Of a stretch of DNA of 64,000 nt, positions 24,392 through 51,210 are shown piece by piece. This stretch comes from an uncultured Acidobacteriota bacterium (GTDB lineage Bacteria > Acidobacteriota > Thermoanaerobaculia > Multivoradales > DATKCC01), in assembly GCA_963739795.1 (NCBI GenBank), contig CAVUBL010000010.1, positions 410,798-474,797 of the forward strand, read 5' to 3'. Made by a program: the position numbers and the translations under genes. The notes below the pieces were generated by a model, which did no database searches, was not told the DNA's origin, and saw only the letters and a list, made by a program, of their open reading frames with translations. Within the stretch, counting starts at the first letter, position 1. Each line of letters begins with the position of its first letter.

Positions 24392-24407
24392 TTGCCGGCA
24401 TGAGCTT

Positions 24408-27400
24408 CTACACCTCCAGCCGGTCGTTCGGCCGGGCGACGAGCAGGTAGAGCGCTGGCATCGAGAAGATGCTGATGACCAAGCGCGCCACCAGGCCGGC
24501 GACGATGACCAGCGCGAAGGGGCGCTGCGAGTCCGAGCCGATGCCGGTGGAGAGCGCCGCCGGCAGCAGCCCCAACGCCGCCACCAGGGCCGTCATCATG
24601 ATCGGTCGTAGCCGGACCAGCGCCGCCTCGTGGGTCGCCGTCGCGATGTCCACCCCTCCGCGCCGCAGCTCGTTGGCGTACGAGATGTAGACCACGGCGG
24701 TCTGAACGGAGACCCCGAAGAGCACCAGGAAGCCGATGCCCGACGAGACCGAGAACGGCGTCCCGGTCGCCCACAAGGCGACCAGGCCTCCGACCGGGGC
24801 CGAGAGCAGCACTCCGACGACCGTGATCAGTGGGAACTTGAAGTTGCTGTAGAGGGCGAAGAGCAGCAGGAAGATCACGAACAGGGTCAGCGGCAGGATG
24901 ATCCTCATCTGCCGCCGCGAGGCCGTGTACTCCTTGTACTCGCCACCCCAGTCGATCCGGTAACCGGTCGGGATCTTCACCTTCCCGCTCACCTGGCGCT
25001 GTGCGTCCTCGACCGCGGAGGCCAAGTCCCGGCCTTCGACCGAAAACTGAACGCCGATATAGCGCTGGTCGTTCTGCCGGTAGATGAACGAGGCGCCGTT
25101 CTCGATGCTGATCTTGGCGAGCTCCTTGAGCGGCACCTGCTGGCCGCCCGGCGTGGCGACCAGGATGTTGCCGATCGTCTGCGGGTTGCTGCGGAACTGG
25201 GGCTCCAGGCGAACCACCAGGTCGAAGAGCTTCTCGCCCTCGACCACCTCGGTCGCCGCATCGCCTCCCACCGCGGCTTCGATCAGGTCGTTGATGTCTG
25301 CGACGTTCACCCCGTAGCGGGCGATGGCGGCGCGATCGACCTCGATCGCCAGGCTCGGCTGGCCGAGCTCCTGGACCAGGGTCACGTGGTCGATGCCGCG
25401 CACCCCCTCGAGGACGCGCTTGATCTGCTTGCCCTTGTCCTCGAGGACGTGGAGGTCACTGCCGAAGACCTTGACCGCCAGCGCGCTCTTCAGGCCGGTC
25501 TCCGCCTCGTCCACCGCATCTTCGGCCGGCTGGGTGTAATTGAAGATGATGCCGGGGAAGGACTCCAGCTTCTGGTCGATGGCGGCGATGAGCTCGGGCT
25601 TCGTGCGGTACTTGCCGTGCCACTGGCTGTACGGCTTCAGGCCGACGAAGAACTCGGCGTTGAAGAAACCCGTGGGGTCGGTGCCGTCGTCCGGCCGCCC
25701 GTGCTCGGAGGCGACCACGGTGACCGGCCCGAAGGAGCGCAGAACCTTGCGGATCTCCGGCACGATCTTGCGCGACTCGTCGAAGGAGATGGTGTACGGC
25801 ATGGTGGCCCGCACCCACAGCGCCCCTTCGTCCAGCTTGGGCATGAACTCCGCCCCGATGTGGGGGATCAGGAGCATCGACAGGCCCAAGAGCGCGGCCG
25901 AAACGAAGGTCGTCGTCCAGGGGTGGCGGAGACTCGCGTCGAGACCGCGGCCATAGACCCTCTTGGTCCACTCGAACGCCACGTTGCGCCGCTCCTTGAC
26001 GCCCCGCCTCATCGCCCAGGAGCAGAGCACCGGGAGGAGAGCCAAGGTGACGATCAGGGAGCCCACCAGGGCGAAGATCATGGTGTCGGCCATCGGCTTG
26101 AACAGCTTGCCCGACGGGCCGGAGAGGACATAGATCGGCAGGAAGCCGGCGATCATCACCACCACCGAGTAGAAGATCGGGCGGTCGACCTCCGCCGCGG
26201 CGCGGACGATGAGCTGATGGATCTTGATCGGTTGCTCGTGGTTCTCCGCCACCTGCCGGAAGATGTTCTCCACCATGAAGACGGCGCCGTCCACGAGGAT
26301 GCCGAAGTCCACGGCGCCGATCGAGAGCAGATTGGCTGGGATCCCCTTGAGGTCCAGGCAGACGAAGGCGAAGAGCAGGGCGAGAGGGATGGTGACCGCG
26401 ACGATCAGACCGGAGCGCCAGTCGTAGAGAAAGAAGATCAGCGCCACGACGACCAGGACCATGCCGCGCATCAGGTTGTCCTCGACCGTGCGGGTGGTGA
26501 GGTCGATGAGATCCGTGCGGTCGTAGAAGGGATGGACCTTGACGTCCTTGGGCAGGATGTGCGCGTTGAGCTCGCGGGTCTTGGCTTCGACCCGCTTGAG
26601 CACGGTCTGCGCCTGCTCGCCCTTGCGCAGCAGGATCACGCCCTCGACGGCGTCGCTCTTCTCGTTGAAGCCGAACTGGCCGAGGCGCGGGGCGTGGCCG
26701 ATCACCACCTTCCCCACGTCCTTGACCAGGACCGGCGTGCCGTCGTGGACGGCCAGGACCACCTGGCCGATGTCCTCCGGGGTGTGCACCCGTCCGAGGC
26801 CGCGCACGTAGTAGAACTGCCCGCCCTCCGAGTAGAAGCCGCCGCCGGCGTTGCCGTTGTTGGCGGCCAGCGCCGAGACCACGTCGGCGACCGAGAGCCC
26901 CGCGCCGGCGATCTTGGACGGGTCGAGGAGCACCTGGTACTGCATCGTCTCCCCGCCCAGCCCGGAGTCGTCGGCGACGCCGGGCACCGCCTTGAACTGG
27001 CGCTCGACGATCCAGTCTTCGATCGTCTTGAGCTCCATCGGAGAGCGATCGGGGCTCTCGAGGACGTAGCGGTAGATCAGCCCCGACGGCGAAAAGAGCG
27101 GTGCCACCGAGGGCGAGACCCCGTCCGGAAGCTCGACGTCGGGCAGACGCTCGAAGACGAGCTGGCGGTCGAAGTAGTTGTCGGTCTTGTCGCCGAAGGT
27201 GAGGCGCACGTCCGAGAGGCCGTAGAGCGAGATCGACCGCTGCACCACCATCCCCGGCGTGCCGTTCATCTCGACTTCCGTGGGGACGGTGATCAGCCGC
27301 TCCACCTCCTCGGCGGCGTGCCCCGGCCATTGGGTGACGATCTCGACCAGGGGCGGAGAGAGATCTGGATAGGCGTCGACCGGCAGGCGGCGGAAGGAGT

Positions 27401-32949: not shown

Positions 32950-33290
32950 CGGACCCTATCCCATTCGAGGGTCACGGACAACGCCCCGGCAGGGCGATGC
33001 GAAGGCGCGACGGTTCCAATCGCTCTCGGTCGAAGAGCGGATGGCGTATCTCACCGAGCTCACCGAGCTGGCCCTCCAGAACAACCCCCGCATCGCCGAG
33101 TCCAAGGATGCTCCAGCGGCTCCAGGGCGTGCTCGCGTCCTTACGCTCCCATGACGTCGAATACCTGGTGATCGGCGGAATCGCCTCCGTTCTCCACGGC
33201 GTGCCGCGGGCGACGTTCCATCTCGACATCCTCATCCGGCCGGACATCGAGAACGCTCGGCGACTCCTCCAGGTATTGCACCTCGAGGCG
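32950..33290 (+). pseudogene. Truncated copy of the small-protein/nucleotidyltransferase module
   Basis: ~280 bp near-identical to 46058-46338; NTase (ATG 33108) stops matching after ~57 aa; DLD changed to HLD. Confidence 0.75.
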
Positions 33291-33627
33291 CCTGGCACCT
33301 GCGCCCGGGGCAGGCGGCGCTGCCGGCCGTCGAGGCGAGGCTCTCCCGGAGGATCCGGGGGTGGCGAGCGGCGATCCGTAGCAGGGCGATGGCGGGGCCC
33401 TCGGGATGCCGGCGGCCTTGCTCCCAGTTGCGCAGGGTGTGGACGCTGATCCCGACGGCGCGGGCGAGCTCCGCCTGCGAGAGGCCGATGAAGCGACGGA
33501 GGGCCGCCACGTCGGCGCCGGATTCGAACTGTCCGTTCATCAGGCGCTTTCTCATGCTCGCCGGGAGGCTGCGCGCGAGTTGCTCCGGAGTGAGCTCGGG
33601 GATGTGCTGTCGGGGCGACTCGTCCAT
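33232..33627 (-). CDS. XRE-family HTH protein (orphan HigA/MqsA-like antitoxin)
   Basis: LRRFIGLSQAELARAVGISVHTLRNWEQGRRHPEGPAIALL. Confidence 0.75.
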   Translation of the reverse strand: MDESPRQHIPELTPEQLARSLPASMRKRLMNGQFESGADVAALRRFIGLSQAELARAVGISVHTLRNWEQGRRHPEGPAIALLRIAARHPRILRESLASTAGSAACPGRRCQAPRGAIPGGVAERSRCPAG

Positions 33628-33685
33628 GCTGACGACGGGGCGCGGTCCGGGGCCGATAGCGCACCCTGTGCTAACGTCTCGCTTC

Positions 33686-34051
33686 ATGTCGAAGCAACGG
33701 ATTCGACGGGTAGCCGTTCCGTGCCTGTCCGCGATCCTGCTGCTGGGTGCGATCGACCTCGGCTCGTCGCGCGAGGTGCACGACCCCTACGCCACGGCCG
33801 GCGTGGAGGTCTTTCCGTGCACCTCGGCGCAGCCGGCCCCCTATCGCCACATCGAGTCGACGCACCCCGAGCACCTGCCGCTCTGCCCCTTCTGCCTGCT
33901 GCAGATGCAGAGCGCGGGCGCCCACCTGCCGCCGGCCGCGGGCAGGGTCTCGTCGCCCTCGCGAGAGTTCGAGGTGCGCGAGGTCCCCACTCCTCCCCTC
34001 CTCACCTTCCACCACCCGGCAAGCCTCCGCGGCCCCCCCGCGGCCTTCTGA
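33686..34051 (+). CDS. DUF2946/CruR-like leader protein (121 aa)
   Basis: N-terminal hydrophobic helix, His residues, CPFC, C-terminal RGPP; upstream of a TonB-dependent receptor. Confidence 0.7.
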   Translation: MSKQRIRRVAVPCLSAILLLGAIDLGSSREVHDPYATAGVEVFPCTSAQPAPYRHIESTHPEHLPLCPFCLLQMQSAGAHLPPAAGRVSSPSREFEVREVPTPPLLTFHHPASLRGPPAAF

Positions 34052-34201: not shown

Positions 34202-36634
34202 ATGTCTCGATATGGAATAGACCGAATCTTCAACCGGCGGGCGCTTCGCGTCGCCCGTCTCGTCTTCTGGCTCTCGCTCGCCCTGCCCGCCGCGGCCCTG
34301 GCCGGCCAGGTGCTGGGCAAGGTCATCGGCCCCGACGGCTCGCCGCTCCCCGGCGTGACCGTCCGTCTCTCCAACCACGTCACCGGCTACGAGCAGCAGG
34401 TCACCACCGGCGCCGACGGCGCCTTCCTGCTCTACAACGTCCCCGACAACCCCTATCACCTGACCGCCGAGCTCTCGGGCTTCTCGCCGGTCCACGAGGA
34501 CGTCTCGGTACGCGGCGCGGTGCCGGTGGAGCGCATGCTCACCCTGGCGCCGAGCTTTTCCGAGAGCGTCTCGGTCGAAGGCGCGAAGGAGCCCGTGGCC
34601 CTCGAGACCGACAGCTCCACCAGCCACGTGGACATCGACCGCTCCCTCATCCGCCGCTTCCCGGCGGCCGCAGCCTCGCGCGCCTTCGAGTCGATCGTGC
34701 TCTCGGCTCCCGGCTTCTCCCAGGACGAGAACGGGCGCTACCACTTTCAGGGCGGTCACTCGCAGCAGCTCCTGGTGGTCGACGGCCAGCCCATCGGCGA
34801 CCAGGTGGGGATCACATTCTCCAACTCTCTCGACCCGGCCATCGTCCAGGACCTCGAGATCCAGACCGGCGGGATCTCGGCCGAGTACGGAGAGAAGGCC
34901 TACGCGGTGCTCAACCTCACGACGCGCTCGGCCCTGGGTCATGACGGCTTCCACGGCGACGCCGGGGTCGGCGGCGGCAGCTTCGGCACCCACCAGGGCT
35001 CTGCGAACCTCGGCTGGGGCGCTGCGCGCCGCGGGGTGTTCGCCAGCGTCGACGGCTCGTCCTCGGACCGCTTCCTCGATCCCGTGTCGTTCGGCAACCT
35101 CCACAACCACGGCGACACTACCCGCGCCTTCGTCCGCTACGACCTGCTCTCGGGGAGCGGCTCGGACTCTCTGAGGTTCACGGCCAACGCCGGCCGTACC
35201 CGCCGCGACGTCACCAACCTGCCGTCCCAGGAGGCGGCGGGTCAGGCCCAGCGGGTCCACTCGGAGGACTGGAACGGCAACCTCGGGTATCAGCACGTCG
35301 CCGGCGACTGGGTCGCCGAGGGCCTCCTCTATGCCCGCGACAACCGCCTGCGCCTCTTCGGCTCACCCGGCGACACGCCGGTGACCGCCGACCAGAACCG
35401 CTCCCTGGCCAACCTGGGCGGGTCGTTCTCGATCTCTCGGCAGATGGGGGTCCACGAGCTCGAGGCCGGTGTCCAGGCCAAGAGGTTTCCCATCGACGAG
35501 CGGTTCGACTTCGGGATCACCGATCCCGGCTTGAACGACCCGGCTTCGGAGGGGTACGACGCCAATCTCGCGCCCTACGACCTCACCCGCGGCGGGCAGC
35601 TCTTCACATTCTCGGGCTCGCGCACGGGCACCTACGGAGCCGCCTTCGTCGAGGACACGATGCGCCTCCGGGCCCTGACCGTGCACGCGGGCGTGCGCTA
35701 CGGGCGCAACCGGCTCTTCGAGACGGAGTCGGAGGTCCAGCCGCGCCTCGGCGTCGCCTACTCCATCGCGCCCACCCACACGGTCCTCCGCGCCTCCTAC
35801 GACCGGATGTTCGTCACCCCGGAGTACGAGAACATCCTGCTCTCCTCCTCGCCCGAGGCCGCGGCCTTGGTGCCGCCGGACATCCAGGCCTCGAACCGCC
35901 TGGGCTTCGGGCAGCTCTACAACGTGTCGGAGAAACAAGACGTGATCAACGTCGGTGTGCAGCAGGGGATCGGCTCCGCCCTCAGAGTCGACGCCTCCTT
36001 CTGGAAGCGGCGGGTCACGAACGCCGCCGACCAGTCGCAGTTCTTCAACACCGGCATCGTCTTCCCCCTCAACTTCAAGGGCGGCGACCTACACGGCTGG
36101 AACCTACGGCTGGACGGTGGTCCGGTCGCCGGAGTGCGCGGCTACCTGTCGCTGGGGCACGTCCGGGCCATCTACGACCCGCCGTTCGTCGGCGGGCTCT
36201 TCCTCGACGCCGAGGCCCTCGACAGCCTTAGCGGCGGCCCGTTCGTCATCGACCACGACCAGAACCTCCAGGAGCAGCTCGGCCTTTACTGGGACGTTCC
36301 CGGAACCGGGTTCTGGCTCGGCCTGACCCAGCGCTACGACTCCGGCCTGGTGACCGACGCCGGGGACCCGGCGGACGTCCTCGCCAGCCCGGACACGGCC
36401 TACGCCGAGCCCTACATCCGGTTCGCCGAGGACCCGCAGCGGATCCGGCCACGCACCGTCTGGAACGCCTCCGCCGGGACGCGCCTGGAGCGCTACCACC
36501 TCCCGTTGGAGCTCGAGGTGGACGTCCTGAACCTGACCAACGAGAAGGGCCTCTACAACTTCCAGTCGGTCTTCGGCGGCACCCACGTCATCCCGCCCCG
36601 GGCGATCTCAGCCCGCCTCCGGGCGACGTTCTAG
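34202..36634 (+). CDS. TonB-dependent receptor with N-terminal carboxypeptidase-regulatory-like domain
   Basis: Signal peptide, plug region (GGISAEYG), beta-barrel pattern, C-terminal Phe (RLRATF). Confidence 0.9.
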   Translation: MSRYGIDRIFNRRALRVARLVFWLSLALPAAALAGQVLGKVIGPDGSPLPGVTVRLSNHVTGYEQQVTTGADGAFLLYNVPDNPYHLTAELSGFSPVHEDVSVRGAVPVERMLTLAPSFSESVSVEGAKEPVALETDSSTSHVDIDRSLIRRFPAAAASRAFESIVLSAPGFSQDENGRYHFQGGHSQQLLVVDGQPIGDQVGITFSNSLDPAIVQDLEIQTGGISAEYGEKAYAVLNLTTRSALGHDGFHGDAGVGGGSFGTHQGSANLGWGAARRGVFASVDGSSSDRFLDPVSFGNLHNHGDTTRAFVRYDLLSGSGSDSLRFTANAGRTRRDVTNLPSQEAAGQAQRVHSEDWNGNLGYQHVAGDWVAEGLLYARDNRLRLFGSPGDTPVTADQNRSLANLGGSFSISRQMGVHELEAGVQAKRFPIDERFDFGITDPGLNDPASEGYDANLAPYDLTRGGQLFTFSGSRTGTYGAAFVEDTMRLRALTVHAGVRYGRNRLFETESEVQPRLGVAYSIAPTHTVLRASYDRMFVTPEYENILLSSSPEAAALVPPDIQASNRLGFGQLYNVSEKQDVINVGVQQGIGSALRVDASFWKRRVTNAADQSQFFNTGIVFPLNFKGGDLHGWNLRLDGGPVAGVRGYLSLGHVRAIYDPPFVGGLFLDAEALDSLSGGPFVIDHDQNLQEQLGLYWDVPGTGFWLGLTQRYDSGLVTDAGDPADVLASPDTAYAEPYIRFAEDPQRIRPRTVWNASAGTRLERYHLPLELEVDVLNLTNEKGLYNFQSVFGGTHVIPPRAISARLRATF

Positions 36635-37052: not shown

Positions 37053-37370
37053 TCAGGCCGCCGTGTGCCTCGGGATCTTCTCCACCTCGCTCTCGAGCTT
37101 CCGCTCGGCGTGCCAGAGGTCGTACTCCGTCTGCATGCGGAGCCAGAGGCCGGGACCGTTGCCGCAGAAGCGGCCCAGGCGGACGGCCATCTCGGGCGAG
37201 ACGGCGGAGCGCTCGGCGAGGACCGCGTGGAGCATCTGGCGCGAGACGCGGAGCTGCCGAGCGGCCTCGCTGACGCTCAGACCGAGGGCGGGGAGCACGT
37301 CCTCGCGGAGAATTGCTCCGGGGTGGGTCGGGGCCATTCGAGGTGGCTGTTCCGCGGGAATCTCGGGCAT
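37053..37370 (-). CDS. higA: HigA/VapI antitoxin
   Basis: THPGAILREDVL..LSVSEAARQL..SPEMAVRL..WLRMQ..YDLW. Confidence 0.9.
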   Translation of the reverse strand: MPEIPAEQPPRMAPTHPGAILREDVLPALGLSVSEAARQLRVSRQMLHAVLAERSAVSPEMAVRLGRFCGNGPGLWLRMQTEYDLWHAERKLESEVEKIPRHTAA

Positions 37371-37383
37371 CTCTCTCCTGCCT

Positions 37384-37659
37384 TCAGTGGTACTGCTCCA
37401 GGTCCACCCGGAGGGCATCGCCGTCGTCCCACTCGAACGTGATGCGCCACGGGCCGTTGACGGCGAGGGCGTAGCGTTCGGGCTTTCCGTGGAGGCGGTG
37501 GAGTCGCCAGCCGGGCAAGTCGAGATCCTTCGGGTCTTCTGCGGCCTGAAGCGCCGTCAGTCGCATCCGCACACGATCGACCAGGTCGGGACGGATCCCC
37601 TTCGGGTCGTTCGCGTTCCAGAGCCTCGCCAGCCCCTTGTGCCGGAAGCTCCGGATCAT
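37384..37659 (-). CDS. higB: HigB (RelE superfamily) toxin
   Basis: MIRSFRHKGL..DLDLPGWRLH.L.G..VNGPWRITF signature. Confidence 0.9.
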   Translation of the reverse strand: MIRSFRHKGLARLWNANDPKGIRPDLVDRVRMRLTALQAAEDPKDLDLPGWRLHRLHGKPERYALAVNGPWRITFEWDDGDALRVDLEQYH

Positions 37660-37721: not shown

Positions 37722-37742
37722 GGCCCGCGCACAGCGCGGGCC
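37722..37742. other. Hairpin/cruciform downstream of VR2
   Basis: GGCCCGCGC-aca-GCGCGGGCC, 12 nt past the stop codon. Confidence 0.75.
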
Positions 37743-37754
37743 AGAGGGCCAAGA

Positions 37755-39939
37755 TCACAGTCCTCCCGACGACGAACAACACACCCGAAACCCGATGACG
37801 TCGTTGCGGCTCTCGGGATGGACGACGTCGCGGTAGGCCGCGCGCAGGTACCTCGGGTAGTCGTGGAACGAGCCGCCCCGCAAAACCCGCGACGCGCCCG
37901 AGGACGGTCCGCTCGGGTCCTTCTCGGCTTCCGGGGGGTAGTCCCCGTACCAATCACCGCACCATTCCCAGACGTTGCCGGCGAGATCTTGGACTCCCTC
38001 CGGCGTCGCCCCCTCGGGGTAGGCGCCCACCGGCGTGGTGTCCCCAACACTCATGCCAAAGTTGGCCAGCTGCTCGCTGGGCTCGGCGTCTCCCCACGGG
38101 TACTTGCGCCCGTCGGGCCGCCGGGCGGCGTACTCCCACTCCGCCTCGGTGGGCAGCCGCACAAGACGTTCGTCTCCGCCCTCGGAGATCCGGCTTGAGA
38201 GCCACTCGCAAAACGCCATCGCATCCATCCAGGAGACGTTGACCACCGGGTGCTCGTCCTTGCCCTCGGGGATCTGCCCGTCCACCCAATGCTCCGGAGG
38301 CTCCTTGCGCGTCGCCTTTACGAAGACGGCGTACTCGGCGTTGGTCACCGGGTGGCGCGAGAGCCGGAACGGGCTCACCGTGACACGCCGGACGGGGGAT
38401 TCGTTTTTCTGGGCCTCTGAATCGTAGCCCGGGCCGTCCGGCTTCGTCCTGCTGCGCCCCCATCCAGAAGCTGCCTCCGGGGATCTCGAGCCAGGCCCCG
38501 GAGCCCAGGTCGAAGAGGTCTCGCTTGCCGCTGACGGGCCGCGCCTTGGGCGCTTCGACTGCCGGCGGCGTGGCGAAGTAGACCAGCAGGTGGCGCTGGC
38601 GGTCGCTGAGCTCTCGCAGCACCTTGAGATGCCGCTCCGGAAGGCCGCTCGCCCGGATGCGGGCCCACTCCGGAGGAGCTTCCTTCTCCCCGGCCGTCCC
38701 CTCCGCCGAGTCCTCGGTCTCCAGCCGTTCCATGTCCAGGAGAAACTTCCTCAGGTTCTGGGGCAGCGCTCGCACCTCTCGCCAGCGGTCGGCGGGCAGA
38801 ATCTCGGAAAGGAGGTGCCAAGCGACGACAGCGGGCTCGGGTAGCTCTTCCTCCCCCTCGCCCAGCTTGCCCGTATTGCGGAGCACCGCGAGAGTCATCG
38901 AGAGGTCGTTCAGGAAACGCTTCACGTGGCGGGGGTGCCGGGTCTCCAGGGCTCGAGCCAGGACCCGGACGTCTTCGCTCCCGCGCTCGCCGCCCGATCC
39001 CAGGACCCTCGCCAGGTCGGAACCCTCGAGGAGGCCGGTCACGTACCCTTCCGCCCCACTGGGGCTCACCTCCGGAAGGTCGAAGGCGACCTGGACGACC
39101 TTCTCGAGGAACTGATCCGCCTGCCCCTGAACGGTCTCCGGCAGGACTTCGACCAGGCGCTCCCAGTCGATCCCCAGGAAGAAGCAGACGCCGGGGAGGT
39201 CGAGGAAGAGGTTGATGGCCTCGATCACCTCGACGACTCGCTCCCGCCGACACCGGTCCAGGTCGTCGAGGAAGACGGCCAGGACCTCTCGGCGCTGGGT
39301 TTCCGGGCTCCAGAGCTGCGCTTCGGTGAGGCCGCCGGTATCGCGGAAAGCGGGCTGGAGCTCGAAGAGGAGCCGGGAGACCTCGTTGAAGAGGTCCCGG
39401 AAGGTGTCGTGGAAGGCCCGCTTCTCGTGGGCCGGGGCGTAGCGGCTTTCCGGGCCGTCGCCGAGGATGAGATCCCGGAGCGGCGCCGGCGCCGCCAGGC
39501 CGAAGAGGGCCTTCAAGGTCGCGCTCTTGTACGAGCCGACCAGGTGCTTGAGCTGGTCGAGCATGCCGCCCTTGCGGAGCTCGTCGATGGCGGCGCCCAG
39601 CAGGCCGGCCAAGATCGTGTCGTCGTCCGGGTACTTCCAGGCGTTGAACCAGAGGGTCCGGACCTTGCGGACGCCGGCAGGAGGGTTCGACTCGGGCTTC
39701 CCCGGGTTCTCGAGTAGCCACTGCGCCCGGCGGAGCAGCGTCGTCTTGCCGCGCCCCCAGCCGCCCCGCACCACCACCGTGAAGGGCGTCGAGTTGTCCG
39801 GGTTCCAGGCCAGCTCCGCCAGGGTTCGGGCGAAGCCCTCGAAACCGAGATCCAGCTCTTGCTCCCGAAGGGGATGGTCCGGGAAGACGCGCGCGAGGCG
39901 GGACGCCTCCGACGCCTCGGACTTCTTGCCCTTGCTCAT
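37755..39939 (-). CDS. DGR target 2: KAP-family P-loop NTPase fused to FGE-sulfatase/CLec domain (one indel near 38450)
   Basis: GGWGRGKTT, FNAWKY, FLDDLDRC, FLEKVVQVAFDLP; [31 protein letters not shown]; ends in VR2. Confidence 0.88.
37758..37895 (-). repeat. DGR variable repeat VR2
   Basis: 138 nt; 12 substitutions versus TR in the variable core, all at TR adenines. Confidence 0.93.
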
Positions 39940-40961
39940 GGGCTCCATCCTCTCAAACTTCGCCACGTCCCGGCCAGCTCGACGTGGCCGCGCCAGGCGG
40001 CGAGGCTCCGCTCGAGCTCCTCCGGCAGCTCGCCACCCTGCCGGCGGCGCCGCAACCGGCGCCGATACCGTCGAACGGTCTCACCGCGGACCCGGATCCG
40101 ATCCGGCCAGACGACATAGCCCAGGAACGGAACCCCTTCGTCCGATCGGCGGATCGACGCTCTTGCGGGGGTGGGCCACGAGGCGAAGCTCCGCGAGCTT
40201 GCCTTCGACTCGTTCCATCCACTGCCGTCAGGACTGCTTCTCGTCGTGAAGGAGGATGAAGTCGTCGACGAAGCGCAGGTACGCCGGCGCGCGCAAGCGT
40301 CCTTACCCAGTGGTCGAAGCCGTCCAGGTACAGGTTGGCCCAGATCTGCGCGGTCAGATTGCCGATGGGCAGGCCCTGCCGTCGGTCCCAAGGGGTGAGA
40401 CAGTCGTCGCCTGGGAAGTAGCACGAAACGGCTCGCGGGCTCGTGCCCATGATCCACGATTCGATCGAGCAGGGAGAGGAGCAGGGCATCCTTGAAGATT
40501 CCCGGAACTTCGCCTTCAGGATCTCATGGTCGATGGCCGGGAAGTACTTCCGAACGTCCACCTTGAGGGCGTAGCGGAAACGGCCGGCGAAACGCTGGTA
40601 GCGGAGAACGGCCCGGTGGCTTCCCTTGCCCCGCCGGTTGGCCCAACAGTCGAAGATCAGGCGGCGGTCGATCTCCGGTTCGATCACGTTGCAGATCGCG
40701 TGATGGACCACCCGGTCGGGATAGGGAGCGGCCGAGATCCAGCGCCTCTTGGGATCGTGAACCAGGAAGTGGCGATGAGGTGAGGGGCTCCAGCTCTCGG
40801 CCGCGAGCTCTCGGCTCAGGCCGATGGAGGTGGTCCTCCAGGCGGCGGTTGAAGCAGAGGACGTCCGGGCGGTAGCGCTTCCCGCACTGGGCTCGGCGGG
40901 CAGCGAGACGGAGGTTTTCGAAAGAGCACACCTCGGCGAAGAGCCCTCCGACCCGGCGCAC
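39936..40961 (-). CDS. DGR reverse transcriptase (several single-base indels as sequenced)
   Basis: Assembled from frames: [67 protein letters not shown]. Confidence 0.88.
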
Positions 40962-40971
40962 GGCGCGACGC

Positions 40972-41335
40972 CTACTCTTCTCGACGGGGCCCGGTGGCCT
41001 GGAGCCACCCGCCGATCATCCGCCCCAGCTCCTCGTTCTGGCCGCTGATGTATTCGAGCTGGCGTGGGGACAGGGCCTCGACCTCGGCCGCCAGCCGCAG
41101 CAGGATGCGGAGCTGGTCCAGAAGGCGGTTCGCCCGGTGGAGGGGGCGCTCCTTGCTGCGGGCATGGGACGCCTCGACGAGGGCCATGCAGAGGTCGAGG
41201 GCCGTGGTCTGGAGCTCGGTCGCCCAGGGTCAACTTGTAGCCGCCGGGGAACCGCTCGACCCGCGGCAGCAGCCACCGGTTGACGTCGTACGCCTTCTGG
41301 ACGATGGGAAGTAGCGCGTCGTCTGAGGGCGACAT
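40972..41335 (-). CDS. avd: DGR accessory variability determinant (four-helix bundle; one indel near 41220)
   Basis: KAYD..WL...[27 protein letters not shown]...ELGRMIGGW. Confidence 0.85.
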
Positions 41336-41532: not shown

Positions 41533-41671
41533 CAGTGCTCCCGACGACGAACAACAACACCCGAAACCCGATGTTGTCGTTGCGGTTCTCGGGATGGTTG
41601 TTGTTGCGGTAGGCCGCGCGCAGGTTCCTCGGGTTGTTGTTGAACGAGCCGCCCCGCAAAACCCGCGACGC
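41533..41671 (-). repeat. DGR template repeat TR
   Basis: 139 nt, 10 in-frame AAC codons ([32 protein letters not shown]); non-coding location. Confidence 0.95.
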
Positions 41672-41734: not shown

Positions 41735-41753
41735 GCCCGCGCACGGCGCGGGC
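41735..41753. other. Hairpin/cruciform downstream of VR1
   Basis: GCCCGCGC-acg-GCGCGGGC, 13 nt past the stop codon. Confidence 0.75.
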
Positions 41754-41766: not shown

Positions 41767-44700
41767 TCACAGTCCTCCCGACGACGAACAACAAACCCGA
41801 AACCCGAAGTTGTCGAAGCGGCCCTCGGGATGGACGCCGTCGCGGTAGGCCGCGCGCAGGTACCTCGGGAGGCAGATGAACGAGCCGCCCCGCAAAACCC
41901 GCGACGCGCCCGAGGGCGGTCCGGTCGGGTCCTCCTCGTCTTCCGGGGGGTAGTTCCCGAACCAGTCGGCGCACCACTCCCAGACGTTCCCGGCCAGGTC
42001 GTGGAGCCCCTCCGGCGTGGCTCCCAGGGGATAGATCCCGACCGGTGTGGGGCGCCCGACGTTCCAGGCGAAGTTCGCATGGAGGGAATCCGGCTCCTCT
42101 TCTCCCCAGGGGTAGCGTCGGCCTTCCAGGCCTCGAGCAGCCAGCTCCCACTCGGCCTCGGTCGGCAGGCGCCCGCCCGCCCAGCGGCAGAAGGCGTCCG
42201 CCTCGTACCAGGAGACGTAGGTCACCGGGCGGTTCGGGTGCCGGAGCTGGTCGTTCCAGGAGTCCGGGCTCGTGTATCCCTCTCGCTCCCGCCAGGTCCA
42301 CCCTTCCGGGTCCCAGCTCCTGGGGTCGAGGTACCCCTCGTCGCCCGCCTCGACGAACCTCCGGTACTCCTGGACCGTCACCGGGTAGCGCCCGAGGACG
42401 AAGGGGCTCACGGTGACGCGGCGGACCGGGGATTCGTCGCCGAAGGCGTCCGGGTCGTAGCCAGGGCCAGGGGCCTCGGAGTCCGCCGTCTGGGCGCCCC
42501 TCCAGAAGGTGCCGCCGGGGATCGCCACCCGGTTCTCCTCCGGCTTCGCCAGACGCGGGTCCCCGGCCTGGCCGAGGGCCTCGCCCACGTCCACGCGAAC
42601 GGCTTCCTCGACGACCTCTTCGCCTTCCGCAGGAGGCTTGAAGATCGTGATGGCGTTCTCGAGGGCGGTCGAGTATGCGGTGCCCGCGGCGGGGTCACCG
42701 CCGTAGGGTTTGAGGTCCACGAGAATCCGGCCTACCAGGCCCACGGCCCGGGCCTCGCTCACCCGGTCGGTGCCGGTCGCGAGGATCTTCTCGAGGAGTC
42801 GCCGGGTGGCCCGCCGCCCGTCCAGGTGGCACAGGCACCCTGCCAGCAGCAGGACCACCTCGCTCCAGCGGTCGTCGTAGAGCCGGCCGTCCTTGGAGAG
42901 GACGTCCCAGTATTGGCCGTCGGTCTTGAGCTCGCGGGCCGCCAGATACTCCTGGAAGGAGAGATGCCAGAACTCGACCTCCCCCTCGGTGTGGCTCACC
43001 ACGATGCCACTCTCGAGCGCTTCGGCTTCGAGGAACGCCCGGCCCTCGGCCTCTCCGGTCTCGAGAACGGGGGCCACGGCTCGGCTCGCCTCGGGCAGGC
43101 CCAGGGAACGCTGGACGCCCTCTGGATCGGTGAACATGTCGAGGGCCAGGGCCTGGAGGGCCTCCTGCCGCTGGCTCGTCGTGAAGGCGAAGTGGTCCTT
43201 GTGGGAGTCCAGGAGATAGGAGATCGCCACCTCGTAGAGCTCGTTGCGGCATTCCGGGAGCTTCTTCTGGTTCCAGTGGACGACCGCGAGCATGGTGAGC
43301 ATCAGGGGGCTCTCGGTCATGGGGCCCACGTCCTCGTGGGAGCGGATGGCCTCGAGGAGCTCGGCCTCGTACTCCGCCGCCTCCCGGCTGGCGTCGGGGC
43401 CGGCGCCCGCACCCTCCGACCCCGGGTCCCGGACCTGGAAGAGGGCGCGGCTCCAGCCGCGGATGAAGGTCGCCACCTGGTCATCGTCGAAGGGCGCCAA
43501 GGGATAGGCGGGCAGGCCGCCGAGGTGCGCGAGCCGCTGATAGGCCCGGGTGCGGCAGGTGATGAGGTGGCGGTTGGGGCGGTCGGTGGAGCCGGTGGCC
43601 ACCAGCTCGTCGACGATGGCGGCGACCCGGGTGCGGAGCGCCCCAGGCACCTCGTCGAGGCCGTCCAAGAGGAGGAAGCAGCCGCCCGAGGTGACACGGC
43701 GGCGCAGGTAGCCCTCCGACAGGCCGAGGTTTCGGCCCTGGAGGTCGAAGTCCAGGTACCGAAGCAGGTGGTCGGGGGCGTCTTCGGGGCAGGAATCGTT
43801 CGGCTGGTCGGCCAGGAACCGGGCGAAGCTGGAAAGGTAGACGAGGACCGGGAAGGGGATCTCCTCGGCGGTGGTGGCGTCGAGGCCCAGCTCGCGGGTC
43901 GCCAGTCTCGGGTCCCTGGTGAGGAGCGACCGGGCCAGGACCTGCGCCGCGAAGCGGAGGAAGGTGGTCTTGCCCGACCCCGGGTCGCCGATGAGGACGG
44001 CGTGCGGCGAGCGGCTGAGGGCCTCGGGAAGCTCGAGGTGCCGCTCCCGGCGGAGATCCTCCTCGATGGGCTCGTGCTGCCGCCCTTCGGGTCCGACGCC
44101 GGCCACTCGAAGGCGGGTGTAGACGCGATCGAGCGGAAGGCGCTCGGCGACCTGAGCGCCCATACCCCGGATCTTGACGTAGGAGTTGCGGCTCTCGACG
44201 GCCTGGAGGTAGCGGGTGGGGTCGGGACCTGCCGGTCGCCGCGTGCCCTCCGACCCCCAGGCTCACCACTTCCTGGGCCACCTTCGGGCCGGTGGCCTGC
44301 GATCTGTCGGCGAGCTCCTCCACCAGCTCCAGCAGCCGCTTCGCCACGTCCTCCCAGGCCTTGTCCTCGTTCCCCCACTCGGGGTCCGTCACGGCGAGGC
44401 CGTTCGTGGGAAGGGCCTGGAGCTTGCCGAACGGAGCGGTCTGCCAGTTCCCCGTCGGCCGGACGATCACCGGCACCACCCGGGCCTCGCCTCTTCGCCT
44501 CCCGCTCCAGCGCCCGCTTCATCTCCCGGCCCCAGATGAACTCCGAGGCGATGAAGTCGTCGCTCACCAGGAAGAGGATGAGGTTCGCCCGCTCCAGCTC
44601 TTCCGCGATCCCCTCCTCCCAGCGGTCGCCGGGGAGGAGCTTGCGGTCGGTCCAGGTGTCGATCAGGCCCTGGCGCTCCAGGAGCTTGAGCGCCTTCTCG

Positions 44701-45964: not shown

Positions 45965-46213
45965 ATGAAGCCGCCGCCACCAGCGCTCTCTGGTTCGGGC
46001 GTGTCCCCGACTCCGGTTCGCGGTGTCTCTCACTCGCGGGACGACGAGAGCCTCGAAGCGAAGGCGCGATGGTTCCAATCGCTCTCCGTCGAAGAGCGGA
46101 TGGCGTATCTCGTCGAGCTCACTGAGCTGGCCCTCCAGAACAACCCCCGCATCGCCGAGTCCAAGGATGCTCCAGCGGCTTCAGGGCGTGTTCGCGTCCT
46201 TACGCTCCCATGA
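45965..46213 (+). CDS. Small protein paired with the nucleotidyltransferase (putative TA partner)
   Basis: KARWFQSLSVEERMAYL; overlaps the downstream NTase; duplicated at 33.0 kb. Confidence 0.55.
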   Translation: MKPPPPALSGSGVSPTPVRGVSHSRDDESLEAKARWFQSLSVEERMAYLVELTELALQNNPRIAESKDAPAASGRVRVLTLP

Positions 46214-46622
46214 CGTCGAATACCTGGTGATCGGCGGAATCGCCGCCGTTCTCCACGGGGTGCCGCGGGCGACGTTCGATCTCGACATCCTCATCCGGCC
46301 GGACCTCGAGAACGCCCGGCGACTCCTCCAGGCATTGCTCGCGGCAGGACTGGCCACCGCGGACCTGACGACGCCCGAGGAAGTTCTGGCCAACGAGATC
46401 ACCATCTTTCAGGACCGCGTCCGCATCGACGTCCAGACGTCGACGCCGGGCCTCGACTTCGAGACGGCCTGGCGGCGGCGGGAGACCATGGACTACCAAG
46501 GGGAGCCATTCTTTGTGGTGTCCCGCAAGGACCTGGTGGCCTCGAGGCGAGCCGCCGGGCAGGACGTGGATCTTCAGGACGCGGAGATGCTCGAAAGCGC
46601 CGGCGAGGACGAGGACGCCTGA
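46167..46622 (+). CDS. Minimal nucleotidyltransferase (DUF6036/MNT-like)
   Basis: YLVIGGIAAVLHGVPRATFDLDILI, RIDV and AAGQDVDLQD motifs. Confidence 0.8.
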   Translation: MLQRLQGVFASLRSHDVEYLVIGGIAAVLHGVPRATFDLDILIRPDLENARRLLQALLAAGLATADLTTPEEVLANEITIFQDRVRIDVQTSTPGLDFETAWRRRETMDYQGEPFFVVSRKDLVASRRAAGQDVDLQDAEMLESAGEDEDA

Positions 46623-47798: not shown

Positions 47799-47906
47799 TC
47801 AGCCAGCCGGACCCAGGACGAACCGCGCTCGCTCCCGCCGGAGCATTGCGTAGGGCGTCATGTGCTTCACACCGAGCCCGATGCAGGCGTCCAGGAGGTA
47901 GGCCAT
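47799..47906 (-). pseudogene. DUF4411 (PIN-like) gene with large internal in-frame deletion
   Basis: 35 aa MAYLLDA|CIGLGVKHMTPYAMLRRERARFVLG matches my recollection of the DUF4411 N- and C-termini joined; TGATG-coupled to the peptidase gene. Confidence 0.65.
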
Positions 47907-49051
47907 CAGAAGCCCACTCCGAGGCTCTGGCCCAACTGGTGGAACGTCGCCATCTTCTTGACGCCCAGCAGGCGGAACGATTCGGTGAACGAGGTCCGTC
48001 CTTCCAGCGTGCTGGTGACCATGGCCCGGGCAAAGCGCTTGCTGACGCGGGCCGGGAGGGTGAGGTAGAAGTTGCCGCCGGAGCCCCGGGGCATGCCGCG
48101 CAGGCGGGCCAGCTCCTCCTCGTAAGCCGACCAGAGCTCAGGCCGGCTCAGGCCACCGGCGTCGTGGATACGGCGAAGGACGACCAGGGTGCTCACCTTG
48201 AAGCGCCGAGCCAGGCGGGCGAGCTCGCTCCGCAGTGGGGCCTTTGCGTCGTACTCGGAGCGCACGAGCTCGAGCGGAGCCAGGAGCTCGGCGGCGACGC
48301 GGTTGCACCAACGTTCGGTCGTCTGGTCCGGAACCGCGACGGCTTGGGCATCGGACACCGCGGACTGACCCAGCCACAGATGCGCGAGCTCGTGGGCGAG
48401 GGTGAACATCTGCGCCGCCTTGGTGTCGGCGCCGTTGATGAAGACCAGGGGCGCGAGCGGATCGCTGAGGGCGAATCCTCGGAACTCGTCCGGGTCCAGG
48501 TGGCGGTGGGTGTTGCTCCCGACGACTCCGCTCACCATCACCAAGATGCCGAGGTCGTCGGCCTGGGCGATGAAGCGGCGGAGCGCCTCCGTCCAAGTGG
48601 AGAGGCGGCGGCGCTCCTCGACGTCGAAGGCCAGGGCGCCTCGGATGGCTGCGGCGGTGGCCACGACGTCGTCTCCAAGTCCCGCCGAGCCGGTGAATCC
48701 GAGCGGTCTCTCCCCCACCGAGCGCGCGAAGTCGCGGAACCAGTCCTGGCGCTGCTGGCAGAGGTAGATCGTGTCGAGGAGGTCCGGGCTGGGACGCCCG
48801 AAGCCGGCGCTGGCGACGGTGCGGAAGTCCGGGATCGGGACTTCCTCGGCCGGCGGCTCGGGCAGGAACAGAAAGCCGATCGGGGTGAAAGTCGCCCTGG
48901 CGAAGCGTTCGAGCTGCTTGAGGGTGGGAAGCCGTTCACCGCGTTCCCAGGCGTCGAGCTTCGGGAAGCGCCTACCGAGCGCATCGACGCTCAAGCCGCT
49001 GCGCTCGCGGGCCCAGCGGAGCAGCTCGGGCTTCACCTCTACACGGTTCAT
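47906..49051 (-). CDS. HTH + ImmA/IrrE-family Zn metallopeptidase
   Basis: N-terminal XRE HTH (LRWARERSG..PTLKQLE); FTLAHELAHLW HExxH. Confidence 0.9.
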   Translation of the reverse strand: MNRVEVKPELLRWARERSGLSVDALGRRFPKLDAWERGERLPTLKQLERFARATFTPIGFLFLPEPPAEEVPIPDFRTVASAGFGRPSPDLLDTIYLCQQRQDWFRDFARSVGERPLGFTGSAGLGDDVVATAAAIRGALAFDVEERRRLSTWTEALRRFIAQADDLGILVMVSGVVGSNTHRHLDPDEFRGFALSDPLAPLVFINGADTKAAQMFTLAHELAHLWLGQSAVSDAQAVAVPDQTTERWCNRVAAELLAPLELVRSEYDAKAPLRSELARLARRFKVSTLVVLRRIHDAGGLSRPELWSAYEEELARLRGMPRGSGGNFYLTLPARVSKRFARAMVTSTLEGRTSFTESFRLLGVKKMATFHQLGQSLGVGF

Positions 49052-50255: not shown

Positions 50256-51210
50256 TTAGTGGAACTGCCTCAGAATCTTCCTGACTGTTCGGTCCAGGTC
50301 TTGATCTGTCTGTCGTAGCTGCTCAATCTTGTCCACAGCGTACATCACCGTAGAATGGTGTTTGTTGCCGAATGCTTTCCGATTTCTGGGTATGAGAGGT
50401 TTGTCAACTTCTTGCAGCAATACATCGCTACCTGGCGAGGAAATGCGACCTGTTGGGAATTTGTCCGGCTCAGAACCTCGTCGACTTTGAGGCAGTAGAG
50501 ACGTGCTACATGCCTGATGACCGCGCGCGCGTCGACGCGGCGTTTACGCGATCGTCTGACGGATGCCGCTCGGTTCTCCGCCAGCTTCGCCAGGTAGGGA
50601 ACGGTGTAGATGCTCTCCAAGAGGGCACGACAGAGGTCCGAGAGGAGGTCCGCCTCGCCCGCCGAAAGCTCGCCAGGTCCGCGTGAGCCCCAATGTTCCG
50701 CATTCTTCTAAACTGGGAGGCAACGCGGACGAGCTTTGGCGGGATCTCCCCTTTTTCCTCGAGGTTCTTAAGTTTCTCAAACAGGTTGTCGCCCCGAGCG
50801 TCGCGATCCGCACAAACTCTCTCGATCACCCTCCCAAGCAGAACAGCGTAGCCGTTGAAGTCGATGGGCTTCACGCGCTCCGCGGCTTCCAATGCGGAGG
50901 CTACCTCCTCTGGCAAGCCTTTCGGGTGGAGTTCTCCAGGTGGGTAAACGGTGTCCGTCAGAATTAGTTCAGGGCTCCCGCCCTCCTCAAGAATGCCCTG
51001 CACTTCATGTTCCGTTCCCTGAGAGAAGAGAAGGCTAATACCTCCGTACGGTGGGCAACGGACCAGCTCCCAGGTCCTCCATGCTGTGTCGCCTCCGGAG
51101 GCATCTTCTTCCTCGCTGTACTCCCGAAGTACGTAGAGAAGTCCGGAATTCCCGCAATGTCGGCAGAGATGGGGGGCTGCAGTCAGCCGTCCGTCGGGGT
51201 CTCCTGGCAT
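50256..51210 (-). CDS. DUF4145 (HEPN-like) domain fused to DnaA domain IV (two single-base indels)
   Basis: CRHC; LGRVIERVC..LFEKL..L..RNIGAH; then FPRQVAMYCCKKLTNLSYPEIGK(A)FGNKHHSTVMYAVDKI. Confidence 0.75.

What the first reader, a model, noticed from the sequence alone, without database searches (positions are those of the whole stretch)
37755..39939. DGR target 2 is a KAP NTPase-FGE/CLec fusion translationally coupled to the RT
Seen: KAP motifs (GGWGRGKT, FNAWKY, LDDLDRC, LEKVVQ) with no obvious TM helices between Walker A and B, then an FGE domain closely paralogous to that of target 1. Its ATG overlaps the RT stop (39936-39939). Known: KAP NTPases include the phage-exclusion protein PifA. 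Inference: a soluble KAP with a hypervariable C-terminal sensor is an uncommon DGR target and may partner target 1.
Basis: partly seen in the sequence, partly recalled or inferred. Interest (0 to 1): 0.78.

Follow-up and report, generated by a model that had tools for sequence, protein, structure and literature searches.

The report
Retroelement-diversified KAP ATPase sensor gene
This is the second target gene of a diversity-generating retroelement, a soluble KAP ATPase joined to a hypervariable lectin-like sensor; the type is already described, and this copy is split by one extra base.

Summary
On the minus strand, 39939-37755 encodes a KAP-family P-loop NTPase followed by an FGE/C-type-lectin-fold domain. 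The last ~115 nt of that domain (VR2) differ from the template repeat (TR, 41671-41558) at 12 positions, all TR adenines. The ATG overlaps the RT stop (ATGA, 39939-39936). No transmembrane segment lies between Walker A and B.

The fusion is not one ORF here. One extra G in the run 38428-38430 splits it. Removing that G gives 727 aa, the length of the nearest intact homologues.

The architecture is not rare. About 100 of the 120 best database clusters carry KAP_NTPase plus FGE-sulfatase. Kaur et al. 2021 (eLife) and Doré et al. 2024 (PNAS) already describe KAP ATPase-FGS/CLec proteins as DGR targets.

Two points add something:
- The pair TIR-NACHT-FGE followed by KAP-FGE is conserved in at least 14 loci from Acidobacteriota and Pseudomonadota. 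The Avd-RT-TR module is sometimes absent from the gap between them.
- This window's cassette has about 10 frame breaks, concentrated in TR-Avd-RT, while flanking genes are intact. Substitution patterns show no relaxed selection, so I favour local consensus errors or very recent decay. Reads are needed to decide.

Verdict: a new member of a known kind, of modest interest.

The parts
38431..39939 (-). Target 2, N-terminal part: KAP-family P-loop NTPase, a helical domain and a linker (aa 1-503 of the conceptual 727-aa protein)
   Evidence: Pfam PF07693 at E 3.9e-25. 86% identical to the intact 727-aa homologue P0002. AF2 model of P0002 has pLDDT 84.
39742..39765 (-). Walker A motif (GGWGRGKT)
   Evidence: G59, G62, G64 and T66 are invariant and K65 nearly invariant across 51 homologues.
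39250..39270 (-). Walker B motif (LDDLDRC)
   Evidence: D225-C230 are invariant across 51 homologues.
38428..38430 (-). GGG run holding the most parsimonious site of the +1 nt that splits KAP from FGE
   Evidence: Dropping one G gives 2184 nt, 727 aa plus stop. The resulting protein aligns without gaps to P0002 across the junction.
37755..38429 (-). Target 2, C-terminal part: FGE-sulfatase / C-type-lectin-fold domain, including the stop codon
   Evidence: Pfam PF03781 at E 6.3e-50. Foldseek matches FGE (TM 0.70) and the DGR target TvpA, 2y3c (TM 0.69).
37782..37895 (-). VR2, the variable repeat of target 2
   Evidence: 12 mismatches to TR, all at TR adenines.
37722..37742 (-). GC-rich hairpin 3' of VR2 (9-bp stem)
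   Evidence: DNA fold of -13.7 kcal/mol, z -3.4. The equivalent element follows VR1.
39936..40961 (-). DGR reverse transcriptase. Indels relative to L001 lie at about 40822 (+1), 40502 (-1), 40445 (+1), 40305 (-2), about 40236/40224 (-1/+1, giving TGA) and about 40158 (+1)
   Evidence: tblastn finds pieces in three frames. Gap list from the alignment. The 40236/40224 and 40158 sites were read by eye. Pfam RVT_1.
40972..41335 (-). Avd accessory protein, with +1 nt at about 41216
   Evidence: tblastn finds two frames. The L001 orthologue passes NCBIfam DivGenRetAVD, 98 bits against a cut-off of 80.
41535..41671 (-). Template repeat (TR). The 114-nt core has 26 adenines, all at codon positions 1 or 2. 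There is one extra T at about 41554 relative to both VRs and to the TR of L001
41767..44774 (-). Target 1: TIR-NACHT-FGE, read in three frames here (breaks at about 44492 and about 44250). It is an intact 971-986 aa protein in relatives
   Evidence: Pfam TIR_2, NACHT and FGE. tblastn frames. Intact orthologues.
41794..41907 (-). VR1, the variable repeat of target 1
   Evidence: 16 mismatches at TR adenines plus 1 at the edge.
41735..41753 (-). GC-rich hairpin 3' of VR1 (8-bp stem)

Best explanation
Window 37755-39939 (minus strand) is the downstream target gene of a two-target diversity-generating retroelement. The gene order is TIR-NACHT-FGE (target 1), TR, Avd, RT, KAP-FGE (target 2).

What is shown:
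- Target 2 is a cytoplasmic 727-aa protein. It consists of a short N-terminal tail without a recognised effector domain, a KAP-family P-loop NTPase with a soluble helical insert between Walker A and B, an all-helical domain, a flexible linker, and a non-catalytic FGE/C-type-lectin-fold domain.
- The last ~38 codons of that domain are rewritten from the TR by adenine-specific mutagenic retrohoming. Sixteen codons contain adenine, ten of them AAC.

What is inferred:
- It belongs to the published class of DGR-diversified NTPase-FGS/CLec 'antigen sensors' (KAP variant), by analogy with STAND/Avs/NLR systems.
- In that model the hypervariable lectin pocket binds an invader molecule and binding switches the NTPase into an oligomeric state.
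- Target 2 has no effector of its own and is almost always encoded right after a TIR-NACHT-FGE gene. Its output is therefore most likely delivered through, or together with, the ThsB-like TIR of target 1.

State of this copy:
- The ORF is interrupted by one extra G (38428-38430). Neighbouring cassette genes carry about 9 more frame breaks.
- I judge these more likely (about 60%) to be local consensus errors or very recent lesions than long-standing pseudogenisation.
For: Domains and motifs:
- Pfam KAP_NTPase and FGE-sulfatase both hit the protein. All 51 aligned homologues hit both families.
- Walker A and B are invariant across those homologues.

DGR signature:
- All 12 VR2 mismatches and 16 of 17 VR1 mismatches fall on TR adenines.
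- A hairpin lies 3' of each VR.
- Avd and RT lie between the two targets.

Intact fusion in relatives:
- About 100 of the 120 listed clusters carry both domains, at 700-737 aa.
- Dropping one G gives exactly 727 aa.

Structure:
- The AF2 model has pLDDT 84, a disordered linker at aa 457-482 and a CLec domain above 90.
- Foldseek matches FGE and TvpA.
- A low-confidence model of the KAP part is nearest to the ring-forming defence ATPase RdrA and to ORC/Cdc6.

Defence kinship:
- PADLOC gives QatA, PifA and PDC-S20 for the KAP part, and ThsB (2e-52) for the target-1 TIR.

Pairing of the two targets:
- Target 1 directly precedes target 2 in WIN, L001, L003, L005, L007, L008, L010, L011, L014 and L074-L078.

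Literature:
- PMC8195603 and PMC10907252 describe KAP ATPase-FGS/CLec proteins with DGRs.

Frame breaks as errors or recent events:
- dN/dS is 0.145 for RT and 0.22 for Avd, as low as the other genes.
- There is no lineage-specific excess of amino-acid changes: 15 vs 12 and 12 vs 8 for RT.
- The indels are insertion-biased, and most of the aligned ones sit outside base runs of three or more.
- AcrB, HsdR, CysRS, the CCA enzyme and the TonB receptor in the same window are full length.
Against: - As given, the sequence does not encode the fusion. The RT it overlaps is not translatable in one frame either, so neither diversification nor coupling can operate if the sequence is correct.
- No experiment exists for any KAP-FGE protein. 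The ligand, oligomerisation and link to TIR are analogies.
- Synteny with target 1 could reflect shared dependence on one TR rather than physical partnership. L002, L004, L012 and L016 show no adjacent target 1 in the sequence available.
- Real decay does occur in this family. L001 has an IS in its RT. L003 has a frameshifted, truncated target 1. L002, L006 and L008 keep only RT remnants.
- Why errors would be confined to about 7 kb of a 64-kb window is unexplained.
Confidence: 0.72

Rival explanations
1. The whole cassette, target 2 included, is a genuinely decaying pseudogene cluster. The retroelement died, the VRs were frozen, and both targets are now being lost.
For: - There are about 10 frame-disrupting indels in target 1 (2), Avd (1), RT (5, plus a TGA) and target 2 (1). 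At least 20 kb of flanking genes are intact.
- Relatives show independent loss of the RT module: an IS insertion in L001, remnants of the RT C-terminus in L002, L006 and L008, and a frameshifted target 1 in L003.
- The TR carries a 1-nt insertion relative to both VRs.
Against: - dN/dS for RT and Avd is as low as for the other genes.
- The relative-rate test shows no excess substitutions on the window branch. Thirteen indels in 1.6 kb without accompanying substitutions is not what neutral decay gives.
- The indels are mostly insertions, which runs against the deletional bias usual in bacterial pseudogenes (my knowledge).
Confidence: 0.35
2. Target 2 is an autonomous sensor-effector. It shares only the TR with target 1 and acts on its own, for example by an NTPase-driven process of the kind proposed for PifA or QatA.
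For: - KAP-FGE genes without an adjacent target 1 occur in L002, L004, L012 and L016.
- Kaur et al. 2021 note that genomes carry several NTPase-FGS paralogues with different NTPases as parallel sensors.
- PADLOC shows similarity to PifA and QatA.
Against: - The N-terminal tail before the KAP domain is short and Pfam finds no effector domain in any of 51 homologues.
- Tight adjacency to TIR-NACHT-FGE holds across Acidobacteriota and Pseudomonadota loci.
- The PifA and QatA matches cover only the P-loop core. QatA scores 77 bits against a cut-off of 600.
Confidence: 0.3
3. The C-terminal domain is a working formylglycine-generating or sulfoxide-synthase-type enzyme, and the KAP part regulates it.
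For: Pfam FGE-sulfatase gives a strong hit, and there are NCBIfam partial hits to EgtB, SenA and PvdO.
Against: - All NCBIfam enzyme models score far below their cut-offs, for example EgtB at 103 against 360.
- The stretch that holds the two catalytic cysteines in FGE (my knowledge of the human enzyme) reads [17 protein letters not shown] here, has no cysteine, and is the hypervariable VR itself.
- The domain also matches the DGR binding protein TvpA in fold (TM 0.69).
Confidence: 0.02

Closest known systems
NTPase-FGS (FGE/CLec) conflict systems with an associated DGR, KAP ATPase variant (Kaur, Iyer, Burroughs, Aravind 2021, eLife 10:e70394)
   Same: A central P-loop NTPase (here KAP) is fused to a C-terminal FGS/FGE lectin-fold domain. 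An RT and a four-helix accessory protein are adjacent. The genome carries a second NTPase-FGS paralogue with a different NTPase (NACHT) and a TIR effector.
   Different: Target 2 has no N-terminal effector or effector-associated domain. Here the two paralogues flank the RT module as a fixed pair.
Clade 5D cellular DGRs with two NTPase-CLec targets (Doré et al. 2024, PNAS 121:e2316469121)
   Same: There are two targets, each with a single C-terminal CLec VR and a central NTPase. That paper mentions KAP NTPase as an alternative NTPase and TIR as an N-terminal effector. Both targets are predicted to be cytoplasmic.
   Different: The host is probably a Thermoanaerobaculia acidobacterium rather than the multicellular taxa emphasised there. 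Placement of this RT in clade 5D was not tested. This copy has broken reading frames.
KAP-family defence ATPases PifA (F plasmid) and QatA (Qat system)
   Same: They share the KAP P-loop core (PADLOC E about 1e-17) and a defence-island-like setting (HigBA, type I R-M and IrrE-like genes nearby).
   Different: The match covers only the NTPase core. There is no FGE/CLec sensor in PifA or QatA, and no QatBCD or PifC partners here. The NCBIfam QatA score is far below its cut-off.
Treponema denticola TvpA and Bordetella phage Mtd (classical DGR variable proteins)
   Same: The VR lies at the C-terminal end of a C-type-lectin/FGE-like fold (Foldseek 2y3c TM 0.69), with AAC-rich TR codons.
   Different: Those are surface or tail-fibre binding proteins without an NTPase. 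This one is an intracellular NTPase fusion.

Membership tests
KAP family P-loop NTPase (Pfam PF07693; Aravind et al. 2004) | Match to the family HMM above the curated threshold over most of the profile | tested here: met
   89.2 bits against a cut-off of 20, over profile positions 2-291 of 293. All 51 homologues match.
KAP family P-loop NTPase (Pfam PF07693; Aravind et al. 2004) | Walker A (GxxGxGKT) and Walker B (hhhhDDLDR) with an insert between them | tested here: met
   GGWGRGKT at aa 59 and LDDLDRC at aa 224, with a ~155-aa helical insert between. Both motifs are conserved in homologues.
KAP family P-loop NTPase (Pfam PF07693; Aravind et al. 2004) | Transmembrane helices inserted in the NTPase domain. 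This is typical of many members but not obligatory. | tested here: not met
   No KD19 window above 1.44 lies between Walker A and B. The maximum, 1.72, is at aa 235-257 and contains D/E. The insert is soluble and helical in the AF2 model.
DGR target gene (variable protein) | A VR/TR pair whose differences lie only at TR adenines | tested here: met
   12 of 12 mismatches fall at A, with 26 A in 114 nt; chance is about 2e-9.
DGR target gene (variable protein) | VR at the 3' end of the ORF within a CLec/FGE fold, followed by an IMH region and a hairpin | tested here: met
   The VR ends about 25 nt before the stop. A conserved GC-rich 3' segment is shared with the TR. A 9-bp hairpin lies 13-33 nt after the stop.
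DGR target gene (variable protein) | A cognate RT and accessory protein able to act on it | tested here: inconclusive
   RT and Avd are adjacent and clearly orthologous to intact copies in L010 and L014. Both are frame-broken in this sequence.
NTPase-FGS conflict system (Kaur 2021) / clade 5D DGR (Doré 2024) | NTPase plus a C-terminal FGS/CLec domain with a DGR nearby, and paralogous targets with different NTPases | tested here: met
   KAP-FGE and TIR-NACHT-FGE flank Avd-RT. The same layout occurs in L001, L010 and L014.
NTPase-FGS conflict system (Kaur 2021) / clade 5D DGR (Doré 2024) | An N-terminal effector or effector-associated domain on the NTPase-FGS protein | tested here: not met
   Nothing is detected in the short N-terminal tail of target 2 or in any of 51 homologues. 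Target 1 does carry a TIR domain.
NTPase-FGS conflict system (Kaur 2021) / clade 5D DGR (Doré 2024) | RT falls in phylogenetic clade 5D | not tested
STAND NTPases (NACHT / NB-ARC / nSTAND) | Match to a STAND family model above threshold | tested here: not met
   nSTAND_NTPase5 gives only 16.5 bits against a cut-off of 34, over 38 residues around the P-loop.
QatA / PifA defence ATPases | Full-length match to the equivalog model, and the partner genes | tested here: not met
   NCBIfam QatA scores 77 bits against a cut-off of 600. The PADLOC matches are partial. No Qat or Pif partner genes appear in the locus.
Formylglycine-generating enzyme (catalytic) | The catalytic cysteine pair, and a score above the threshold of an enzyme equivalog model | tested here: not met
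   There is no cysteine in [17 protein letters not shown]. All enzyme models score far below their cut-offs.

The most novel reading that the evidence does not exclude
The effector-less KAP-CLec protein and the TIR-NACHT-CLec protein form an obligate two-receptor immune module. Both are programmed from one TR. The KAP sensor gates or co-assembles with the TIR-NACHT sensor, giving a bacterial 'sensor/helper' NLR pair with hypermutable specificities. The Avd-RT-TR module is a detachable accessory that can be lost, or supplied in trans, once useful specificities are fixed.
Probability: 0.2. Interest if true: 0.65.

Novelty: new member of a known kind. Interest (0 to 1): 0.32.

Why it matters
DGR-diversified NTPase-lectin proteins are the best candidates for a hypermutating, adaptive-like receptor system in bacteria, and none has been tested experimentally. 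This locus adds an acidobacterial (probably Thermoanaerobaculia) example of the KAP variant.

More usefully, the comparison across relatives shows that TIR-NACHT-FGE plus KAP-FGE is a conserved gene pair. The retroelement module between them comes and goes. That gives a concrete, testable hypothesis: paired sensors that share one TIR output. Intact cassettes for such a test exist in L010 and L014. The window copy itself is a poor experimental starting point until the frame breaks are checked in reads.

Tried and rejected
- I looked for the same population in JGI metagenome contigs, using an exact pattern across the frameshift site and another across the RT/target-2 junction. Both gave no match, so no second copy was found to arbitrate the indel.
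- An exact look-up of the window's own 661-aa product found no contig on record.
- I tested whether the cassette indels could stem from RT-mediated retro-conversion of its own locus. The substitution spectrum against L001 shows no adenine bias in Avd or RT, so I rejected this.
- I tested for long-standing pseudogenisation with dN/dS and a relative-rate test against L010 and L014. Neither showed a signal.
- A GC3 frame plot of the whole window was too noisy to count frameshifts. I replaced it with Pfam coverage of large flanking ORFs.
- A sequence search of the PDB found no solved KAP relative.
- The KAP-only AF2 model had pLDDT 65, so its RdrA and ORC matches are only a weak lead.
- A programmed +1 frameshift was considered and rejected, because all 100-plus homologues encode the fusion in a single frame.
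- My first FGE1/FGE2 comparison used a wrong frame. It was repeated correctly.
Full report
**Anatomy.** All elements lie on the minus strand. ORF listing and Pfam give this order:
- Target 1: TIR_2, NACHT and FGE-sulfatase, 44774-41767.
- A 137-nt template repeat (TR), 41671-41535.
- An Avd-like four-helix protein, 41335-40972.
- A reverse transcriptase, 40961-39936.
- The gene in question, 39939-37755.

ORF 37954-39966 matches KAP_NTPase (E 3.9e-25, 89 bits against a cut-off of 20, profile positions 2-291 of 293). ORF 37755-38378 matches FGE-sulfatase (E 6.3e-50).

The ATG at 39939 overlaps the RT stop as ATGA.

**DGR signature.** The TR core (41671-41558, 114 nt) holds 26 adenines, all at codon positions 1 or 2, in 16 codons (10 are AAC).
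- VR2 (37895-37782) differs from it at 12 positions, all adenines.
- VR1 (41907-41794) differs at 16 adenines plus one edge position.
- The chance that all mismatches fall on adenines is about 2e-9 for VR2 and 4e-13 for VR1.
- Each VR is followed, 13-33 nt after the stop codon, by an 8-9-bp GC hairpin.

Target 2 has therefore been rewritten by mutagenic retrohoming at least once.

**The fusion and the frameshift.** KAP and FGE are in different frames here.
- Comparison with target 1 and with the orthologue in L001 places the break between GAQQDE and GYDSEAQKNESPV.
- The simplest repair is removal of one G from GGG at 38428-38430. That gives 2184 nt, or 727 aa.
- This is exactly the length of the nearest intact homologues, which are up to 86% identical over the KAP part.
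- A programmed frameshift is excluded because every homologue encodes the fusion in one frame.

**How common is the architecture?** A search with the KAP part alone returned 239 clusters. Of the 120 listed, about 100 carry PF07693 plus PF03781 at about 700-737 aa. All 51 that I aligned hit both families.

The literature already covers it:
- Kaur et al. [quoted passage not shown] They note an associated DGR RT and four-helix protein, and several paralogues per genome with different NTPases and effectors (PMC8195603).
- Doré et al. [quoted passage not shown]

'Uncommon DGR target' is therefore not supported.

**Relatives and context.** The nearest genome hits are Thermoanaerobaculia, Holophagae and other Acidobacteriota MAGs. 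More distant ones come from Pseudomonadota and from Desulfosediminicola flagellatus.
- The same layout (target 1, TR, Avd, RT, target 2) occurs in L001, where an IS sits inside the RT, and intact in L010 and L014.
- In L003, L005, L007, L011 and L074-L078, target 1 is followed directly by target 2, with the two genes about 75-360 nt apart and no Avd or RT between them.
- L008 keeps the TR but not Avd or RT.
- L002, L006 and L008 keep only the last ~12-50 codons of the RT in front of the KAP gene.
- L006 has two tandem copies of [RT remnant, KAP-FGE].
- L013 has a different order: KAP-FGE, Avd, RT, NACHT-FGE.
- The two VRs of L074 differ from the window's TR at 20 and 18 adenines but at only 0 and 1 other positions. 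A near-identical TR therefore acted on them, although none is on that 9.8-kb contig. The module may work in trans or have been lost very recently there.
- The TR is also the best-conserved stretch between the window and L001, at 96% against about 81% overall.

The conserved unit is thus the gene pair TIR-NACHT-FGE plus KAP-FGE.

The ATGA overlap is kept in L001 and in the L002 remnant, and is GTGA in L006. In L010 the stop and start are separated by a few nt, and in L014 by a few tens of nt.

**Protein features.** These come from the AF2 model of the orthologue P0002 (51-sequence alignment, pLDDT 84):
- A P-loop α/β core.
- An all-helical insert (aa 106-217) between the strand after Walker A and the Walker B strand.
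- A helical domain (aa 293-456).
- A low-confidence linker (aa 457-482).
- A very confident FGE/CLec domain.

Other observations:
- Hydropathy gives no TM candidate between Walker A and B.
- Foldseek matches the C-terminal domain to FGE (TM 0.70) and to the DGR protein TvpA (2y3c, TM 0.69).
- A KAP-only model was of low confidence (pLDDT 65). Its best matches, the ring-forming RADAR ATPase RdrA and ORC/Cdc6, are only a lead.
- PADLOC relates the NTPase core to QatA, PifA and PDC-S20, and the target-1 TIR to ThsB.
- NCBIfam enzyme models (EgtB, SenA, PvdO) and QatA are all far below their cut-offs.
- The VR stretch [17 protein letters not shown] has no cysteine, so the domain is a binding module and not an FGE enzyme. 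The position of the FGE catalytic cysteines is from my own knowledge.
- No effector domain is found at the N-terminus of target 2 or of any homologue.

**State of the cassette.** Alignment to L001 (81.5% nt identity) shows 14 gaps. Three further sites in the RT were read by eye from the sequence: about 40236 (-1), about 40224 (+1) and about 40158 (+1).

Frame-disrupting events:
- Target 1: about 44492 (+1) and about 44250 (part of a 37-nt length difference).
- Avd: 41216 (+1).
- RT: 40822 (+1), 40502 (-1), 40445 (+1), 40305 (-2), about 40158 (+1), plus an in-frame TGA from a -1/+1 pair near 40236/40224.
- Target 2: 38428-38430 (+1).

The TR itself has an extra T at about 41554, and three more single-base indels lie in the short spacers.

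Thirteen of the 17 indels fall in the 1.4 kb between 41554 and 40158. This is the segment missing from the relatives that lack RT between their targets.

In contrast, other genes in the window are full length: AcrB (profile 1-1020 of 1021), its HlyD and OEP partners, HsdR, CysRS, a 907-aa CCA/PolyA polymerase-family protein and the 810-aa receptor ORF at 34202-36634.

**Real decay or error?**

For decay:
- Relatives show genuine loss of the RT module.
- L003 has a broken target 1.

Against long-standing decay:
- Frame-corrected dN/dS against L001 is 0.145 for RT and 0.22 for Avd. The other segments give 0.17 to 0.30.
- Relative-rate tests with L010 or L014 as outgroup give 15 vs 12 and 12 vs 8 unique changes for RT, and 8 vs 3 and 7 vs 7 for Avd. 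None is significant.
- There is no adenine bias in substitutions.
- Insertions outnumber deletions about 10 to 4, and most of the aligned indels lie outside base runs of three or more.

Thirteen indels without accompanying substitutions is not what neutral evolution gives.

I therefore put about 60% on local consensus or polishing error, or on very recent events, and about 35-40% on real pseudogenisation. An error could arise from low read support for a module present in only part of the population, or from a multi-copy module. Two exact-pattern scans of JGI metagenome contigs found no second copy to settle this. Reads are required.

**Mechanism.**
- Shown: domain order, adenine-only VR/TR differences, hairpins, adjacency to Avd and RT, and conserved pairing with TIR-NACHT-FGE.
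- Inferred, by analogy with Avs/NLR STAND systems and following Kaur 2021 and Doré 2024: the hypervariable CLec pocket binds an invader-derived ligand in the cytoplasm. Binding drives NTP-dependent oligomerisation of the KAP domain. Because target 2 lacks an effector, signalling proceeds with or through the TIR of target 1.
- Rival: target 2 acts autonomously, since KAP-FGE genes without target 1 exist in L002, L004, L012 and L016.

**Verdict.** It is a new member of a known kind. The conserved pair of sensors and the detachable RT module are the only modestly new points.

Noticed in passing
window 32995-33279 and 46054-46338: A 285-nt direct repeat (95% identical, 13,059 nt apart) brackets the segment that holds the TonB-type receptor, the HigBA pair and the whole DGR locus. 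The copies overlap small ORFs that share the peptide FQSLSVEERMAYL.ELTELALQNNPRIAESKDAPAA. The second copy runs into a DUF6036 nucleotidyltransferase-like ORF (46152-46622).
   Followed up: partly
window 37053-37659 (-): A HigB-like toxin (37384-37659, Pfam E 2.8e-15) and an HTH antitoxin (37053-37418) lie immediately downstream of target 2 on the same strand.
   Followed up: partly
window 41554 (TR): The TR has one extra T (GTTGTTGTT against GTGTTGTT) relative to both VRs and to the TR of L001, just upstream of the shared GC-rich 3' segment. If it is real and were transferred, it would frameshift the last ~12 codons of either target.
   Followed up: partly
L001 6684-8611: An IS (DDE_Tnp_1 transposase, 547 aa) is inserted in the RT gene of the closest related cassette, after RT codon ~267. 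Its targets and Avd are intact.
   Followed up: partly
L002 ~9960-10000; L006 2793-2954 and 7013-7174; L008 ~640-750: Only the last ~12-50 codons of the RT survive in front of the KAP-FGE gene, still ending in the ATGA/GTGA overlap. L006 carries two tandem copies of [RT remnant, KAP-FGE]. L008 keeps the TR (402-537) but not Avd or RT.
   Followed up: partly
L074 3297-3408 and 5585-5698: Both VRs of this pair, which has no RT between the targets, differ from the window's TR at 20 and 18 of 26 adenines but at only 0 and 1 of ~87 other positions. They were written from a near-identical TR that is not on the 9.8-kb contig.
   Followed up: no
L075 1824-4047: The target 1-target 2 pair sits next to relaxase, MobC/NikA and PIN-TPR-GreABC genes, which suggests carriage on a mobilisable element in that relative.
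   Followed up: no
window 21439-24774 (-), 47906-49051 (-), 50506-51213 (-), 33232-33687 (-): Other defence- or island-type genes surround the locus: a type I restriction HsdR (1111 aa), an IrrE-like Peptidase_M78 plus HTH protein, a DUF4145 protein and an MqsA-like antitoxin.
   Followed up: no
window 41535-41671 vs L001 5176-5313: The TR is far better conserved between the window and L001 (5 mismatches in 138 nt, none at adenines) than the flanking genes (about 81% identity).
   Followed up: partly
L003 4365 and 5252-5540: In a short-read-style (k141) co-assembled MAG contig of a close relative, target 1 has a frame change at 4365 and loses similarity after aa 919, while target 2 is intact. 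This looks like genuine decay in the family.
   Followed up: no
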